Below, piece by piece: positions 36,120-53,477 of a stretch of 64,000 nt of DNA (the first letter of the stretch is position 1; each line of letters opens with the position of its first letter). The stretch spans positions 70,742,001 through 70,806,000 of the forward strand of contig OX597819.1 in NCBI GenBank assembly GCA_951406725.2, written 5' to 3'. This stretch comes from Octopus vulgaris. Lineage: Eukaryota. The notes beneath the pieces are model-generated. The model was not told the origin of the DNA, made no database searches, and was given only the letters and a program-made list of their open reading frames with translations. The translations under genes were made by a program, and so were the position numbers.

Positions 36120-37350
36120 TTCCTGGAACTTCCCACTTCAAATCCCCTTTCCTCAGAACTTTCCAGGAAATCGCCTTCCTTGAAACTTTCCAGGAAATTA
36201 TAATCCTCTTTCCAGGATTTCCGATCCTTCGACTTTTCCAGGAAATAGTAATACCTTTTCCAGAAAGTTCCCATCCTCGGACTTTACCATGAATGAATTC
36301 CTCCCCTTCCTTGCCTTCGATTCCCTCCTCGGAACTTTTCAGGAGGTCGACATCCTCGGAACTTTTCGGGAAATCATAAACCTCTTTCCAGGAAGTTTCC
36401 ATCTTTGGAATTTTCTAGGAAATAGTAATCATTTTCCAGGAAGTTCCTATACTTAAACTTTTCCATAAATGACTCCCTCTCCTTCCTCGCCTTCAATTTC
36501 CCCTCCTCAGAACTTTCCAGGAAGTAGCCTTCCTCGGAACTTTCCAGGAAATTATAATCTTCTTTCCAGGAAGTCACCAACCTTGGACTTTTCCAAGAAA
36601 TAGTCATCCGTCTTCCAGGAAGTCACCATCCTTGGACTTTTCCAGGAAATAGTAATCATTTTCCCAGGAAGTTCCCATCCTCTGACTTTTCCAGGAAGTA
36701 TTCCATCCACTTCAATTTCCCTTTCCTCGGAACTTTCCGGGAAGTCACCTTCCTCGGAACTTTCCAGGAAATTATAATTTGCTTTCCAGGAAGTTCCCAT
36801 CCTAGGACTTTTCCAGGAAATAGTAATCATTTTCCAAGAAGTTATTATCTTCGGACGTTTCCTCCTCCTCTGAATTTTCCAGGAAGTCACACCCATCGGA
36901 ACTTTCCCAGAAATAGTAATCTTATTTCTAGGGAGTTTCCATCCTCGGACTTTTCCCTGAAGGATTCCCTCGGAACTTTCTAGGCAGTCGCCTTCCTTAG
37001 AACTTTCCAGGAAATACCAATCCTATCTCCAGGAAGTTCCTATTCTTGGACTTTTCCAGGAAATAATCATTTTTCCAGGAAGTTCCTATACTCGGACTTT
37101 TCCAGGAATGACTGCCACCCCTTCCACACTTTCAATTTCCCCTCCTCGGAACTTTCTCGGGAATTAAATCCTCCTTCTAGGAAGTTTCCCTCCTCGGACT
37201 TTTCCAGGAAATGGTAATCCTTTTTCCAGGAAGTTCTCATCCTCGGACTTTTCTAGGAAGAACTCCCTCGCCTTCCTCCCTCTAGCTGCACTTCAATTCC
37301 CTCTCCTCGGGACTTTCCAAGATGTTGCCTTCCTCGGAACTTTCCAGGGA
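36120..37350. repeat. Degenerate minisatellite of ~22/27-bp units built on a TTCCAGGAA core
   Basis: More than 20 TTCC(A/G/T)GGAA cores by eye, with recurring ATAGTAATC and CCTCGGAACT spacers. Confidence 0.85.
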
Positions 37351-44207: not shown

Positions 44208-44486
44208 TACATTTTTTATCCATGGACCCCTTTAATCCCTATATAACTCTAGTGGAGACCCTCGTAGCCATTAAAACACAAAGCCTATTATATGTTTAAA
44301 ATCAAATGTTATTAGGAATTGTATTTTAAAAAATTGTGGCTGTGTGGTAAGAAGCTTGCTTCCCAACCACATGGCTCCGGGTTCAGTCGCACTACGCGTC
44401 AACTTGGGCAAGTGTTTTCTACTATAGCCTCGGGCTGACCAAAGCCCTGTGAGTGGATTTGGCAGACGAAAACTGAAAGAAGCTCG

Positions 44487-44547
<61 letters not shown>

Positions 44548-45416
44548 GTCATCCCATAAGTTCTGTACGATTTTAACTTTTTTTAAAATTGAATGAAATT
44601 TAATAGTATTTTAGAATGTCTAATGGAATTAAAAATTATTTTTATGCATTTCTGTACATTTTAACAAATTAAATATTATTTTACAGAATAATAGAATATA
44701 TATATAAGAGAGAGACGTATTGGTATCCAGAAGACTCTCTTTATGAATGTCCTGAAAATTCCACACAGCTTTGGCTTTGTTGTCTCATTTTATTTAGCAC
44801 ACACACACACTCACACACACACACAAATAAATATACGACGGGCTTCTTTCAGTTTCCGTCTACCAAATCCACTCACACAGCTTTGGTTGGCCTGAGACTA
44901 TAGCAGAAGACACTTGCCCATGGTGCCACACAGTAGGACTGAACCTGGAACCATGCGGTTGGGAAGAAAGCTTCTTACTACATAGCCACACCTGCGCCTG
45001 TGTTACGGGGAAATTTTCTTGTCACACCGCTTAAAAGTATAAAAAAACATCTATTTTTGGCTGTATTACGGATCTGCAAACCAATGTCTGTTTTATTGCG
45101 TCATCCAATAATGCTAAAAAGTAGGTCTTTGATGGCTGCAATTTTTGCTAAAGTTATTAAACCATCGAAAATCATTATGTTTTTGTCTGAGTAAAATTGA
45201 TTCTGTTAATTAAAAGCCAATTTTATAAATCTGACTCTGGGTCACTGTTGACTGCAGAGAATTTACACGGCGCTTACAGGAAATCATTAACCCGTTCTCC
45301 CTTTTTTTATTAAAAACATTTTGTTTTTTGAAATTGAAGTCCATGAATTTTAACTTATCAAAAAAAATGTGTATGTGTGTGTGTATGAGTGTGTGTGATT
45401 GTGTGTGTGTGTGTAG

Positions 45417-45920
<504 letters not shown>

Positions 45921-46560
45921 TAATTTATTATATAGAAGGAGCTTCTACAGGACTAGAATTGTTTCATTCAAGAGAAATCATCAGGAATTTTACTCTGCTA
46001 TGTATTGAGTACCTTATTTACTGTGGTTAACCCCGAATCAACCCGGGACCTACATATATATATATACATATATATATATATCTATATATAAACCTTTGTA
46101 TATATAATTTTTGTCGAGTAAGTCTCTTGTTTCTCAAATTTTCACCTGTGGGTGCACAGGGTGTTCTGGCAAGTTACGATTCTTCCGACCGTCAACATTA
46201 AAGAAGTACATACATACATACAGACATACATATACATATATTGGTACAGGACGTCACCAACAGTATACAACATGAAATACGAAAACAAATGAGTTCAATA
46301 CGCAAACGACGAGAGAAACAAATGGAAAACAGGACAAGTAACACAAAGAACGACCCTTCATCAGTTGTCTGCTGTCTATCTACTCCTCATTTCGAGCATT
46401 GAACGACAATATGAGTCTTCGAAGACAGTCTCTCTCATGAGTACCAAGTCGTTGTTTGTGTTACTTGTCCTGTTTTCAATTTGTTTCTCTCGTTGTTTGA
46501 GTATTGAACTCATCTGTTTTCGTATTTCATGTTGTTTACTGTTGGTGACGTCCTGTACCC

Positions 46561-46623
<63 letters not shown>

Positions 46624-46901
46624 TTAATAAGGGTGAGAGAATTAGACACTAATTTAATAGTATATTTATTCAACACCAAGTGGCCTAGTGCTACGAGAAA
46701 CCTGGATTATTATAATATTTTATAACATATTATAATATTTTTACAAAATAAATATAAGAGAGTGGTCACTATATTGCTCACTCTAGCACCAGTTAATCCA
46801 AAAGGTTTCAACCACGAAAATACATGTTTCCCATGAAAGTCAGTACGACTGTTAGCTCACACGGACAGGGCAAATAAAAAATAACAAAAATACAGATTAT
46901 T

Positions 46902-46978
46902 TTGGGACAATTGTTTCGCTATTAATGAATTAAATGTAATATTACTTACAAAAAATCCATTTGTAGCTCGTCAGCCAA
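46902..46978 (-). ncRNA. Type I hammerhead ribozyme (array copy 1)
   Basis: Reverse complement of the 48954-49030 motif: ttgggacaattgtttcgcta...tagctcgtcagccaa. Confidence 0.88.
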
Positions 46979-47435
46979 GACTATCTGGATGAAATCCACT
47001 CAATCACACGCCAGATATTACCATAACGATAAATACGCGTGTGATTCAATTGATTACATCCGACGTTATAATTCAAATGCCCCAAACAACAGCGCGCCAA
47101 ACTTTCACGGAAAACAAATACAGCATTTAGAAATAAATGCAGCATAATTATAATTAATTAATAAGGGTGAGAGAATTAGATACTAATTTAATAGTATATT
47201 TATTCAACACCAAGTGGCCTAGTGCTACGAGAAACCTGGATTATTATAATATTTTATAACATATTATAATATTTTTACAAAATAAATATAAGAGAGTGGT
47301 CACTATATTGCTCACTCTAGCACCAGTTAATCCAAAAGGTTTCAACCACGAAAATACATGTTTCCCATGAAAGTCAGTACGACTGTTAGCTCACACGGAC
47401 AGGGCAAATAAAAAATAACAAAAATACAGATTATT

Positions 47436-47512
47436 TTGGGACAATTGTTTCGCTATTAATGAATTAAATGTAATATTACTTACAAAAAATCCATTTGTAG
47501 CTCGTCAGCCAA
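47436..47512 (-). ncRNA. Type I hammerhead ribozyme (array copy 2)
   Basis: Same motif, +534. Confidence 0.88.
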
Positions 47513-47969
47513 GACTATCTGGATGAAATCCACTCAATCACACGCCAGATATTACCATAACGATAAATACGCGTGTGATTCAATTGATTACATCCGACGT
47601 TATAATTCAAATGCCCCAACCAACAGCGCGCCAAACTTTCACGGAAAACAAATACAGCATTTAGAAATAAATGCAGCATAATTATAATTAATTAATAAGG
47701 GTGAGAGAATTAGATACTAATTTAATAGTATATTTATTCAACACCAAGTGGCCTAGTGCTACGAGAAACCTGGATTATTATAATATTTTATAACATATTA
47801 TAATATTTTTACAAAATAAATATAAGAGAGTGGTCACTATATTGCTCACTCTAGCACCAGTTAATCCAAAAGGTTTCAACCACGAAAATACATGTTTCCC
47901 ATGAAAGTCAGTACGACTGTTAGCTCACACGGACAGGGCAAATAAAAAATAACAAAAATACAGATTATT

Positions 47970-48046
47970 TTGGGACAATTGTTTCGCTATTAATGAATTA
48001 AATGTAATATTACTTACAAAAAATCCATTTGTAGCTCGTCAGCCAA
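47970..48046 (-). ncRNA. Type I hammerhead ribozyme (array copy 3)
   Basis: Same motif, +1068. Confidence 0.88.
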
Positions 48047-48503
48047 GACTATCTGGATGAAATCCACTCAATCACACGCCAGATATTACCATAACGATAA
48101 ATACGCGTGTGGTTCAATTGATTACATCCGACGTTATAATTCAAATGCCCCAACCAACAGCGCGCCAAACTTTCACGGAAAACAAATACAGCATTTAGAA
48201 ATAAATGCAGCATAATTATAATTAATTAATAAGGGTGAGAGAATTAGATACTAATTTAATAGTATATTTATTCAACACCAAGTGGCCTAGTGCTACGAGA
48301 AACCTGGATTATTATAATATTTTATAACATATTATAATATTTTTACAAAATAAATATAAGAGAGTGGTCACTATATTGCTCACTCTAGCACCAGTTAATC
48401 CAAAAGGTTTCAACCACGAAAATACATGTTTCCCATGAAAGTCAGTACGACTGTTAGCTCACACGGACAGGGCAAATAAAAAATAACAAAAATACAGATT
48501 ATT

Positions 48504-48580
48504 TTGGGACAATTGTTTCGCTATTAATGAATTAAATGTAATATTACTTACAAAAAATCCATTTGTAGCTCGTCAGCCAA
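48504..48580 (-). ncRNA. Type I hammerhead ribozyme (array copy 4)
   Basis: Same motif, +1602. Confidence 0.88.
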
Positions 48581-48953
48581 GACTATCTGGATGAAATCCA
48601 CTCAATCACACGCCAGATATTACCATAACGATAAATACGCGTGTGGTTCAATTGATTACATCCGACGTTATAATTCAAATGCCCCAACCAACAGCGCGCC
48701 AAACTTTCACGGAAAACAAATACAGCATTTAGAAATAAATGCAGCATAATTATAATTAATTAATAAGGGTGAGAGAATTAGATACTAATTTAATAGTATA
48801 TTTATTCAACACCAAGTGGCCTAGTGCTACGAGAAACCTGGATTATTATAATATTTTATAACATATTATAATATTTTTACAAAATAAATATAAGAGAGTG
48901 GTAATATCTGGTAATATCTGGCGTGTGATTGAGTGGATTTCATCCAGATAGTC

Positions 48954-49030
48954 TTGGCTGACGAGCTACAAATGGATTTTTTGTAAGTAATATTACATTT
49001 AATTCATTAATAGCGAAACAATTGTCCCAA
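48954..49030 (+). ncRNA. Type I hammerhead ribozyme (array, inverted arm copy 1); predicted cleavage after GUC at 49026
   Basis: TTGG-CTGACGA-GCTA[caaATGGATTtttTGTAAgtaataTTACAtttAATTCATtaa]TAGC-GAAA-CAATT-GTC-CCAA. Full core, stem I TTGG/CCAA, extended stem II, palindromic stem III ACAATTGT. Confidence 0.88.
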
Positions 49031-49487
49031 AATAATCTGTATTTTTGTTATTTTTTATTTGCCCTGTCCGTGTGAGCTAACAGTCGTACTGACTTTCATG
49101 GGAAACATGTATTTTCGTGGTTGAAACCTTTTGGATTAACTGGTGCTAGAGTGAGCAATATAGTGACCACTCTCTTATATTTATTTTGTAAAAATATTAT
49201 AATATGTTATAAAATATTATAATAATCCAGGTTTCTCGTAGCACTAGGCCACTTGGTGTTGAATAAATATACTATTAAATTAGTATCTAATTCTCTCACC
49301 CTTATTAATTAATTATAATTATGCTGCATTTATTTCTAAATGCTGTATTTGTTTTCCGTGAAAGTTTGGCGCGCTGTTGGTTGGGGCATTTGAATTATAA
49401 CGTCGGATGTAATCAATTGAACCACACGCGTATTTATCGTTATGGTAATATCTGGCGTGTGATTGAGTGGATTTCATCCAGATAGTC

Positions 49488-49564
49488 TTGGCTGACGAGC
49501 TACAAATGGATTTTTTGTAAGTAATATTACATTTAATTCATTAATAGCGAAACAATTGTCCCAA
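49488..49564 (+). ncRNA. Type I hammerhead ribozyme (array, inverted arm copy 2); predicted cleavage after 49560
   Basis: Same motif as 48954-49030, 534 nt downstream. Confidence 0.88.
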
Positions 49565-49782
49565 AATAATCTGTATTTTTGTTATTTTTTATTTGCCCTG
49601 TCCGTGTGAGCTAACAGTCGTACTGACTTTCATGGGAAACATGTATTTTCGTGGTTGAAACCTTTTGGATTAACTGGTGCTAGAGTGAGCAATATAGTGA
49701 CCACTCTCTTATATTTATTTTATATATATATATATACATATTTATATTATTATTTGATTGAACGCCACGCATCCATTTCCAA

Positions 49783-49837
<55 letters not shown>

Positions 49838-49869
49838 CATATGTGTGTGTGTGTTTGTGTGGGTGTGTT

Positions 49870-49907
<38 letters not shown>

Positions 49908-50087
49908 TGTGTGTCTGTGTGTCTGTGGTTGTATGTATGTATGTCATTATTCAGTTTTATTTTAAGATTTCTTGCCAATAGAGAAAGAACCAGTTTTTAA
50001 CCTAGATCTAAGGCTCACTCATTGGAATTTCAACATCAACAACAGGGCATGTATGTATGTATGTATGTATGTATGTATGTATGTATG

Positions 50088-51407: not shown

Positions 51408-53477
51408 TGAGAAATTGAGAAAATGTGGCAAAATTGAGAAAATGTGGTAAAATTGAGAAAATGTGGCATAATTGAGAAAATGTGGCATTCACGTTATTCA
51501 CTGCCGGGTCATAGTGCTAGCGCATGTATATGTGTATATATCACGTGATCACGTGACCGACCAGGCCATCAGATGTTGTTACACATCGCTGGTCACAATG
51601 CGTTTGCATTGTTTTAGCCTTCGAATGACGCCACCCCGCTGGCTAAGCGAGCAGGCCAACAGAAGAAAGAGTGAGAGAAAGTGTGGTGAAAGAGTACAGC
51701 AGGGATCACTACCCCCTGCCGGAGCATCGTGGAGCTTTTTAGGAGTTTTCGCTCAATAAACACTCACAACGCCCGGTCTAGGAATCGAAACCGTGATCCT
51801 ACGACCGCGAGTCCGCTGCCCTAACCACTGGGCCATTGCGCCTCCACATATGTGTATATATATGTGTACATATTATATGTACATCTATATATATATACAT
51901 CTACACATAAAATACGAAATACAAAGTTATATCTTGATATCGCTAGTGATAACAATACTCAAAATATATAACAGACTGGAATTATAAGCCCGTCTCTTGC
52001 AATTTCGATCAATTGTATCTTGTCTTCCCTCTTGTATAGAAGTGTGGCTACAATCCAGCCTACCTCTGCTGCTGGTGGGTGGGGGGCATTTAAAATTTTT
52101 ATCCAGGACGTCCTACGTCCCAGATATAAAGGTAAAAATAAAATATTTCCACTTTGCAAGTTCGAGTCGAGTACTCCCTTGACTCGAACCTTGCTTCTAT
52201 TCTGGCGAATTTATCGCCTCTGTTTAGATATCTTTCATAGTCGCACCAAGACACTTTTCGGTGGTGCTTTCTTCCAGGTGTTCAAGTCTTGTTTTTTTTC
52301 TCTATATTGAATACTTTATAGACTTTTCTTTAATTTAATTTTTTATTATCCATCTGGACTATTCCATTTCTGCATGCTAATTTTATTTTTAATTTATTCA
52401 TGTGAAACCACTTATTCAAGTTCAAGTCATTGATGCAATTTTATACCAAGTTTTACTTTTGTTATGATACGATTATATCATACTCTAGTTTGATTTTAAT
52501 TATTACTTACTACATATAATTCATTTGTTATTATTATTTTTATTGTTAAAGTGAAAGCATCTGACATAAAATAGAGAAATGTTTTTGTTTCACTTTTAAC
52601 ACGTAATGTTGAAATAGTGGAGAAGATATGATATTGATATGGGCTCGCTCTAGGCAAGAAGTTGAACATTTTTTTTTGCCCATGAAACTACATGGACCCT
52701 AAGTAAGGCATGTGTAAAATTTGAATGAAATTGGTTGTGTAGTTCTCAAGTTTTAGGGAATCGTAGTGGAGAAGATATGGTATTGCTGTGGGCTCGCCCT
52801 AGGCAAAAAGTTAAAAAATTGTTTGCCGATGACACTCCCCGGACCCTAAGTAAGGCATGTGTAAAATTTGAATGAAATTGGTTGTGTAGTTCTCAAGTTT
52901 TGGGGAAACACACAGACAGACAGACACACATTCTCAGTTTTATATAGAGAGAGATAACGTATTTTTATCCGTTGTTACATACAATGTTATCTATAAATCT
53001 ATAGATATATTCTATAGCACTTCTATAGATATCTTCTATAGTTTCCCAGCCTATATCAATATGGCCCCAAAGGAGTTCATTGAAGTCTCAGAAAAGTCTT
53101 GGAATTAGATGGAAGCCACAGAATCGATGAAGGAGTTACACAATTACTGCTCTGCGTTTTGTTCTAAAAGTTTACATTTACTAGCCGTAACTCTTTAAAA
53201 TTAATATGATAAGGCATACACACAGACACAAACATATACATACAATGTATTTTCTATATATTAAATTTCGTAAGAAAAAAAAAGGATTCATTTAACACTT
53301 CAATAATAATTTGACATTGATAAATATAGTATTAGGTTAGCATTGAAAAATCTTGTACGAATTAAATATGTTACGGCTTTGTAGTTCACACATCCGGTAA
53401 CAATCTCTACGGGTAATTATCTGCGTCACTTCGTTGAACTTTGGGGCGGCGCTGTAATGTAATGTTTCTGTATAATA

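What the first reader, a model, noticed from the sequence alone, without database searches (positions are those of the whole stretch)
48881..49721. Twin-priming-like 5' inversion shows the multimer probably inserted as one retrotransposition event
The direct arm ends with AAAATAAATATAAGAGAGTGGT (48881-48902). The outer end of the inverted arm (49700-49721) is its exact reverse complement, so both breakpoints fall in the same 22 nt of the monomer. The central junction has TGGT microhomology and a 10-nt duplication (GTAATATCTG twice, 48901-48920). This is the geometry known from twin-primed L1 insertions, and inverted 5' segments are also typical of Penelope insertions. It implies reverse transcription of a ~5.8-mer template (uncleaved multimer or rolling-circle copying of a circle) primed from AT-rich target ends.
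Basis: partly seen in the sequence, partly recalled or inferred. Interest (0 to 1): 0.78.

Follow-up and report, generated by a model that had tools for sequence, protein, structure and literature searches.

The report
Ribozyme repeat inserted from both ends
This is one copy of a repeat family with a predicted hammerhead ribozyme; nearly all of its two-armed copies point back to back and end at two fixed, different positions, likely because a Penelope-type retrotransposon enzyme copied one, probably circular, RNA from both ends of a cut in a TA repeat.

Summary
The sequence facts are exact, but the 22-nt 'in-phase' overlap is chance. The array is a 534-nt hammerhead retrozyme: 4.28 units on one strand, 1.52 on the other, inside (TA)n. 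The genome has at least 855 exact ends of one type (monomer position 291) and 410 of the other (161). In 48 of 49 resolved two-armed loci one arm ends near 291 and the other near 161, never the same end twice. Inner junctions are random: 4 of 48 are 'in phase', 4.6 expected. So 49721 is a fixed family end, not an L1-style internal priming site. Both arms share one haplotype (25 of 26 loci; 6.8 expected), and arms reach 15 units, so one event from one template is likely, probably by repeated laps of a circle. Two young autonomous Penelope-like families in this genome show the same architecture with 40-46-nt offsets; here the offset ('tail') is 130 nt. No partner element with matching sequence was found. 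The junction, the empty site and the RNA circle are unconfirmed. Verdict: a new variant of a known kind, and useful evidence that Penelope machinery moves animal retrozymes.

The parts
46615..48902 (-). Arm A: 4.28 head-to-tail units of the 534-nt monomer in ribozyme sense; 3' (outer) end at fixed monomer position 291, inner end at 140
48909..49721 (+). Arm B: 1.52 units in ribozyme sense; inner end at position 417, 3' (outer) end at fixed position 161
48899..48920 (.). Central head-to-head junction: 4-nt microhomology TGGT and a 10-nt duplication of the start of arm B; the duplicated piece carries this locus's own allele (T at position 423)
46615..46744 (-). 130-nt 'tail' (monomer positions 162-291): present at the end of arm A, absent from the end of arm B
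   Evidence: compare
48881..48902 (-).
49700..49721 (+). Monomer positions 140-161 at the fixed outer end of arm B
49492..49560 (+). Predicted type I hammerhead core (CUGACGA, long stem II, GAAA, 2-bp stem III in palindrome ACAAUUGU, GUC cut site)
   Evidence: motif definition recalled; Rfam gave no hammerhead match at E<=1
48958..49026 (+). Predicted hammerhead core, arm B first unit
48508..48576 (-). Predicted hammerhead core, arm A
47974..48042 (-). Predicted hammerhead core, arm A
47440..47508 (-). Predicted hammerhead core, arm A
46906..46974 (-). Predicted hammerhead core, arm A
46561..46614 (.). Left (TA)n target remnant
49722..49736 (.). Right (TA)n target remnant

Best explanation
The array is one copy of a non-coding 534-nt repeat with a predicted hammerhead ribozyme, whose two back-to-back arms end at two fixed sites 130 nt apart; it was likely inserted in one event by a Penelope-like reverse transcriptase-endonuclease that would cut both strands of a (TA)n tract and extend both ends on one, probably circular, RNA. 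Shown: the fixed ends (291 and 161), their strict one-of-each pairing, the (TA)n flanks, random inner junctions, one haplotype per locus, arms of up to 15 units, and the same architecture in two autonomous Penelope-like families of the genome. Inferred: a protein dimer loads on one RNA and starts one DNA end at site 291 and the other at site 161; each polymerase runs a random number of laps, displacing the other's cDNA; the two cDNA 3' ends are joined by end-joining with microhomology or short templated insertions; second-strand synthesis completes the insertion. Untested: transcription, self-cleavage, circularisation, and which Penelope family supplies the enzyme.
For: Fixed, paired ends: 27 of 28 two-armed loci among the 40 best hits and 21 of 21 resolved two-armed loci in a second sample of 40; 0 of 49 carry the same end twice. 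On contig C1 all 13 close pairs among 101 exact ends (72 A, 29 B) are A+B and face outwards. Ends abut TA-rich tracts. Arms share a haplotype in 25 of 26 loci; permutation mean 6.8, maximum 15 of 10,000. Of 156 variants at sites covered 3 or more times, 81 are in every unit of the locus, 63 single, 12 in a subset; 6 are private to one locus yet in all its units. No variant lies within 5 nt of the predicted cut in 156 passes, and one substitution in 83 more: no scar of template jumping between linear monomers. Arms reach 12.8 and 15.1 units, and either arm may be the longer (lengths uncorrelated, rho -0.02). Autonomous controls: a family with RT plus C-terminal GIY-YIG (775-aa frame) has ends at 677 and 717-723, one of each in 7 of 7 two-armed loci with both ends in view, in (TA)n, with both arms often covering the same ORF; a second family (781-aa frame) has two ends about 40 nt apart. 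Literature: head-to-head inverted truncated copy, 30-40-nt tail at one end, (TA)n targets (PMC8557442, PMC3846280); a purified Penelope-like protein cuts and extends both strands and starts at two internal RNA sites that define the tail, and is predicted to be a dimer (PMC11167929).
Against: No autonomous element with sequence similarity to the monomer was found: no hit at E<0.01 in 50 GIY-YIG loci, best E 0.08 in 44 loci, 4 of them also among the 50, and no such element beside 33 unpartnered ends. The 130-nt offset is three times the 30-46 nt seen in print and in the two local families. Twelve substitutions recur in a subset of units of a locus (0.06 expected by chance), one of them here (396C>T in the two outermost units of arm A); a single unmodified circle does not predict them. 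One locus (L177) has a catalytic-core change (U4 to C) in 5 of 5 units, and inherited changes are not depleted in the ribozyme (4 of 64 in 38 positions, 4.6 expected; the stem positions were only roughly placed), so a need for self-cleavage is not shown. A ends outnumber B ends 855 to 410, and 18 of 33 loci picked by one end have no detectable second arm. A common haplotype fits two RNAs from one source locus as well as one RNA. One two-armed locus (L051) has ends at 70 and 164.
Confidence: 0.62

Rival explanations
1. Same Penelope-type double priming at two fixed sites, but on a linear, uncleaved multimer transcribed from an existing array, or on two RNA molecules from one source locus (dual priming). 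No circle is needed; long arms come from long source arrays or later tandem expansion.
For: Ribozyme mutants still serve as template in vitro and unprocessed RNA was the main substrate (PMC11167929). A core-mutant template was inserted at L177. Variants shared by a subset of units (12 cases) would be inherited from a mosaic source array. A deletion between the arms is invisible modulo 534 nt, so phase alone cannot exclude it. The autonomous 4.3-kb family shows the same geometry with no circle shown.
Against: New variants become fixed in all units of a locus (81 of 156; 6 private), which needs a one-monomer bottleneck followed by amplification. Linear copying with 5' truncation shortens arrays each round, yet arms of 12-15 units are near-identical inside (L162: no subset variants in 16.5 units). 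Two independent RNAs do not by themselves explain 0 of 49 same-end pairs.
Confidence: 0.27
2. Classical L1-style twin priming: one end primes at the RNA 3' end, the other at a chance internal site, and the first cDNA stops near that site, giving the 22-nt in-phase overlap.
For: The window geometry taken alone fits: overlap of 22 nt, 4-nt microhomology and a short duplication. Both arms come from one haplotype.
Against: The 'internal' site is fixed at 161 in at least 410 ends. In-phase inner ends are not enriched: 4 of 48 against 4.6. No poly(A) tail. Both arms often cover the same sequence several times.
Confidence: 0.04
3. Self-priming fold-back on an antisense template (proposed for Penelope elements in PMC3846280) makes the head-to-head arms.
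For: Head-to-head arrangement; 6 of 48 loci have both inner ends within 15 nt of each other, 2.8 expected (P 0.058).
Against: 42 of 48 junctions are not symmetric, this one included (140 against 417). It does not explain two different fixed outer ends each joined to (TA)n.
Confidence: 0.04
4. A later DNA-level inversion inside a plain tandem array, or an assembly chimera.
For: The junction and the empty site are not confirmed by reads.
Against: The same two-ended architecture at 48 loci, with one breakpoint always at position 161 directly against (TA)n and no flank carried into the junction; junctions are asymmetric, unlike read fold-backs.
Confidence: 0.03

Closest known systems
Non-LTR retrozymes of animals (Cervera and de la Pena 2020, PMC7229834; Li, Clavereau and Pollet 2026, bioRxiv 10.64898/2026.07.22.740005)
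   Same: Tandem, non-coding, AT-rich monomers each with a type I hammerhead; dispersed multimers; proposed circle template giving tandem cDNA; proposed link to Penelope-like elements.
   Different: Monomer of 534 nt, above the 150-400 nt quoted in a review but within the 51-972 range of the preprint. Neither main text describes inverted arms or fixed ends: 'inverted' 0 times in PMC7229834; 'inverted' once, in a reference, and 'tail' 0 times in the preprint. The preprint leans on local tandem amplification; here unit number appears to be set at insertion.
EN+ Penelope-like elements (Penelope/Poseidon, Neptune, Naiad): inverted pseudo-LTR plus 'tail' (PMC8557442, PMC3846280, PMC11167929)
   Same: Head-to-head inverted 5'-truncated arm, tail at one end only, (TA)n targets, two internal start sites; seen also in two autonomous families of this genome.
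   Different: No ORF; tail of 130 nt instead of 30-46; both arms are multi-unit; no similarity to the pseudo-LTR of the local families tested.
Non-autonomous Chlamys elements such as MRC1 (PMC8557442)
   Same: Non-autonomous Penelope-type passengers that form multicopy head-to-tail insertions.
   Different: Those resemble their autonomous partner at the 3' end and belong to a clade without canonical hammerheads; this one has a hammerhead and no identified partner.
L1 twin priming and dual priming (as described in PMC2837659)
   Same: Both target ends prime cDNA; inverted arms joined at their truncated ends with microhomology.
   Different: No poly(A); the second priming site is fixed; the first arm does not stop at it; the arms overlap in sequence over several units.

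Membership tests
Non-LTR retrozyme | Tandem monomers each holding a type I hammerhead | tested here: met
   Six identical cores at 534-nt spacing; stems I and II fold as expected, z -3.3 and -3.7. Rfam gave no hammerhead match at E<=1; the motif definition is recalled.
Non-LTR retrozyme | No protein coded, no LTR/PBS/PPT, low GC | tested here: met
   Longest ATG frame 54 aa on the circularised monomer; GC about 0.32. PBS and PPT were not searched for.
Non-LTR retrozyme | Dispersed multimeric copies | tested here: met
   At least 855 exact A ends and 410 B ends genome-wide.
Non-LTR retrozyme | Self-cleavage and accumulation as monomeric circular RNA | not testable with these tools
   Only assembled contigs were on offer; no holder on record as RNA.
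Penelope-type insertion | Inverted 5'-truncated copy joined head to head | tested here: met
   28 of 40 best-hit loci; 22 of 40 in the second sample, one of them unresolved.
Penelope-type insertion | Two fixed 3' ends, a 'tail' at one end only | tested here: met
   Ends at about 161 and 291, one of each in 48 of 49 loci; tail 130 nt against 30-40 nt in print.
Penelope-type insertion | AT-rich or (TA)n target | tested here: met
Penelope-type insertion | Sequence relation to the pseudo-LTR of an autonomous element | tested here: inconclusive
   No significant hit in the GIY-YIG/PLE loci fetched; only 150 of 6136 GIY-YIG candidates were scored.
Autonomous Penelope-like element | RT plus GIY-YIG ORF | tested here: not met
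   No ORF over 54 aa: a passenger, not an autonomous element.
L1 twin-primed insertion | 3' poly(A) tail | tested here: not met
   Ends run straight into (TA)n.
L1 twin-primed insertion | Variable internal priming site, with the non-inverted arm ending near it | tested here: not met
   Site fixed at 161; in-phase 4 of 48 against 4.6 expected.
L1 twin-primed insertion | Target-site duplication | tested here: inconclusive
   Cannot be delimited inside (TA)n; no empty allele in hand.
L1 twin-primed insertion | Microhomology at the inner junction | tested here: met
   Of 28 junctions: 11 overlap by 1-4 nt, 6 blunt, 11 with extra bases; boundaries from k-mer mapping, so approximate.

The most novel reading that the evidence does not exclude
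A Penelope protein dimer loads on a single circular retrozyme RNA at two staggered sites, hands one site to each end of a double-strand cut in (TA)n, and both polymerases run round the same circle for several laps. The number of tandem units is thus written at insertion, in both directions. Scattered recurrent substitutions within a locus (three A positions in L161, two of them in both arms) would be repeated misreadings of modified bases on that one RNA molecule.
Probability: 0.4. Interest if true: 0.75.

Novelty: new variant of a known kind. Interest (0 to 1): 0.55.

Why it matters
Which enzyme moves animal retrozymes, and whether their tandem arrays come from copying a circle or from later DNA amplification, is stated as open in a 2026 preprint. 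How Penelope elements make inverted arms and tails is also open. This young family leaves hundreds of near-identical insertions with the Penelope signature, which ties retrozymes to Penelope machinery by insertion anatomy rather than by similarity. The strict one-of-each pairing of ends is a rule that any model must meet, and a 534-nt RNA with two mapped start sites is a small substrate for an in vitro test.

Tried and rejected
In-phase geometry as a sign of twin priming: rejected. Rfam scan: only microsatellite-driven microRNA and snoRNA matches below their thresholds, no hammerhead. Sequencing runs: 20 of 24 listed runs hold most of the monomer under three species labels; no RNA holder listed, so nothing follows on expression. 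Laying four runs on 46150-50050: contigs collapse on the repeats, both flanks are repeats, and neither junction nor empty site could be judged. Search for the autonomous partner by nucleotide similarity near GIY-YIG hits and beside unpartnered ends: nothing. Two loci whose ends lie 8.8 kb apart proved to be pure arrays, not coding elements. Primer pairing as the sole reason for the two sites: not supported, other TA-like 12-mers of the monomer score higher. Purifying selection on the ribozyme: no signal, low power. The allele 423T looked private to the window (absent from 39 other loci), but L168 shows no T>A change there on another haplotype, so only the whole haplotype is unique among loci seen. 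Earlier findings of the scan: none returned.

Full report
Observation. The array is 46615-48902 (4.28 units of 534 nt) followed by an inverted 48909-49721 (1.52 units), between two (TA)n tracts. The window lies on contig C6 of a 2.8-Gb, microsatellite-rich genome; I did not identify the species.

What the monomer is. Each unit carries CUGACGA, a long stem II, GAAA, a 2-bp stem III within the palindrome ACAAUUGU and a GUC site: six identical cores in the window. The region folds with stems I and II as a type I hammerhead needs (z -3.3 and -3.7). The motif definition is recalled; Rfam did not detect it. The circularised monomer has no ATG frame over 54 aa. The ribozyme strand is minus in the long arm and plus in the short arm, so the arms are joined at their truncated 5' ends and point outwards. 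I number the monomer from the base after GUC.

The family test. A search of the own genome gave 217 matches from the best 40 of 1048 candidates; I fetched these 40 loci, the window's own included. This sample favours young, long copies. Twenty-eight have two head-to-head arms; in 27 one arm ends near 291 (site A; range 285-292, one at 238) and the other near 161 (site B; 150-161), and one locus (L051) ends at 70 and 164. Ends abut TA-rich tracts. Exact end-plus-TA patterns occur 855 times for A and 410 times for B, with 0 for the reversed controls. On C1, where both lists are complete, all 13 pairs within 15 kb among 101 ends are A+B facing outwards. I fetched a second sample of 40: 18 of 59 unpartnered A ends on C1, 15 of 16 unpartnered B ends, and 7 loci chosen as pairs. 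Among the 33 chosen by one end, 14 had a resolved second arm, all of the other type (A 277-291, B 145-161); 18 had none detectable and one ran off the fetched stretch. In all, 48 of 49 resolved two-armed loci are A+B and none is A+A or B+B.

The in-phase claim fails. Inner ends are uniform round the monomer (Rayleigh p 0.52 and 0.91, 27 loci). The A arm's inner end lies within 25 nt of 161 in 4 of 48 loci; 4.6 are expected. The window is one of the four. So 49721 is a programmed terminus and 48902 a random stop. Arm lengths are uncorrelated (rho -0.02, 26 loci; medians 1022 and 625 nt); either can be the longer, up to 12.8 and 15.1 units. Of 28 junctions, 11 overlap by 1-4 nt, 6 are blunt and 11 have extra bases, so the window's microhomology and short templated duplication are ordinary end-joining marks (inference).

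One event, one template. Seven sites separate subfamilies. The two arms agree at all shared sites in 25 of 26 loci; the one miss is a 1-nt deletion at such a site; shuffling gives 6.8 (maximum 15 in 10,000). Two of the 28 two-armed loci were not in this count (L051, two non-A ends; L054, 29-nt arm not aligned). Of 156 variants at sites covered three or more times, 81 are in all units of their locus, 63 in one, 12 in a subset; 6 are private to a locus and in all its units. In the window all units of both arms carry T at 423 where the 39 other first-sample loci have A; L168 appears to have T on another haplotype. No variant lies within 5 nt of the cut site in 156 passes, and one substitution in 83 more. 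Fixing a new variant in every unit needs a one-monomer bottleneck followed by amplification, which a circle read for several laps gives directly (inference). Against a clean circle model: 12 substitutions recur in a subset of units in 57 loci (0.06 expected); 10 are in non-adjacent units and 3 span both arms; gene conversion, a mosaic linear template, assembly error or misreading of modified template bases could each do this. L177 carries a core mutation in 5 of 5 units, and inherited changes are not depleted in the ribozyme.

Which machinery. GIY-YIG hits in the genome (148 matches from 150 of 6136 candidates) led to two young autonomous families with RT and C-terminal GIY-YIG (the RT scores lie just under the Pfam cut-off). 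One has a 781-aa frame and two ends about 40 nt apart, one of each in the two two-armed loci among 16. The other has a 775-aa frame, a 4271-nt unit and 75 further copies listed at 100% over 573 aa; among 21 loci, all 7 two-armed ones with both ends in view pair end 677 with end 717-723, in (TA)n, often with both arms covering the same ORF. This is the retrozyme's architecture with a shorter offset. The monomer has no significant similarity to either, so the partner is not identified.

Mechanism. Most likely a Penelope-type protein cuts both strands of (TA)n and extends both ends, starting one at site A and one at site B on the same RNA; each runs a random distance, round a circle if the template is one, and the cDNA ends are joined. 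The steps shown and inferred are separated under Best explanation. I give 0.62 to this model and 0.27 to the same double priming on linear RNA. That Penelope-type machinery made the insertion in one event I put near 0.9.

Literature seen. PMC11167929: parts 1-2 of 4, the whole main text: both strands cut and extended, two internal start sites define the 30-40-nt tail, dimer predicted, ribozyme cleavage not needed in vitro, no difference in start site between strands in bulk. PMC8557442: passages: inverted truncated copy, tail often at one end only, (TA)n targets, non-autonomous multicopy Chlamys. PMC3846280: passages: tail on one inverted pseudo-LTR, self-priming proposal. PMC7229834: passages: retrozymes as circles, tandem cDNA model, mobiliser unknown. 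bioRxiv 10.64898/2026.07.22.740005: parts 1-3 of 5, abstract to discussion, and a word search: retrozymes related to pseudo-LTRs, mechanism open. PMC11722881 and PMC2837659: passages. Searches for a prior description of retrozyme insertions with inverted arms or fixed paired ends found none; the library lacks most subscription papers, and I did not see the supplements (the insertion model figure of PMC7229834, the preprint's tables), which may bear on this.

Verdict. Real feature, right conclusion, wrong evidence. The inverted arm and tail are known Penelope hallmarks and retrozymes are known; new are their combination in a retrozyme family, the 130-nt tail, the strict pairing counted over dozens of loci, and multi-unit arms with one haplotype. 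New variant of a known kind; interest 0.55.

Noticed in passing
L141-L160, L117 (e.g. G000:C7:64291500-64301490): Very young autonomous Penelope-like family: two ORFs, 775-aa RT/GIY-YIG frame, 4271-nt unit, 75 further copies listed at 100% over 573 aa; head-to-head insertions in (TA)n with paired ends 677 and 717-723. No CUGANGA core in the first 1500 nt after the stop.
   Followed up: partly
L101-L116 (e.g. G000:C6:133342500-133352490): Second autonomous Penelope-like family: upstream frame of about 479 aa, 781-aa RT/GIY-YIG frame, two 3' ends about 40 nt apart, (TA)n targets.
   Followed up: partly
L161:516-9315: 16.4-unit retrozyme locus with three substitutions at A positions (193, 285, 335) that recur in scattered, non-adjacent units, two of them in both arms; unexplained.
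   Followed up: partly
L177: Retrozyme locus with the catalytic-core change U4 to C in all 5 units of both arms.
   Followed up: no
window 46236-46566: High-copy element with 119-nt inverted arms (94%) directly left of the array's (TA)n; MITE-like or another head-to-head passenger.
   Followed up: no
window 45471-45780 and 51524-51848: Two copies, about 95% alike, of a roughly 300-nt dispersed repeat on either side of the array, 6.05 kb apart; probably a SINE-like family.
   Followed up: no
window 44335-44990: Inverted arms of 164 nt, 84% complementary, 328 nt apart.
   Followed up: no
window 36140-37260: Degenerate tandem array built of 27- and 49-nt units around a TTCCAGGAA motif, with higher-order periods of 98, 176 and 220.
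   Followed up: no
L042, L043, L052 (5' flanks): Single arms ending at 161 have a few bases at the other side that read as the inverted 291 end, as if the second arm stopped after a few nucleotides.
   Followed up: partly
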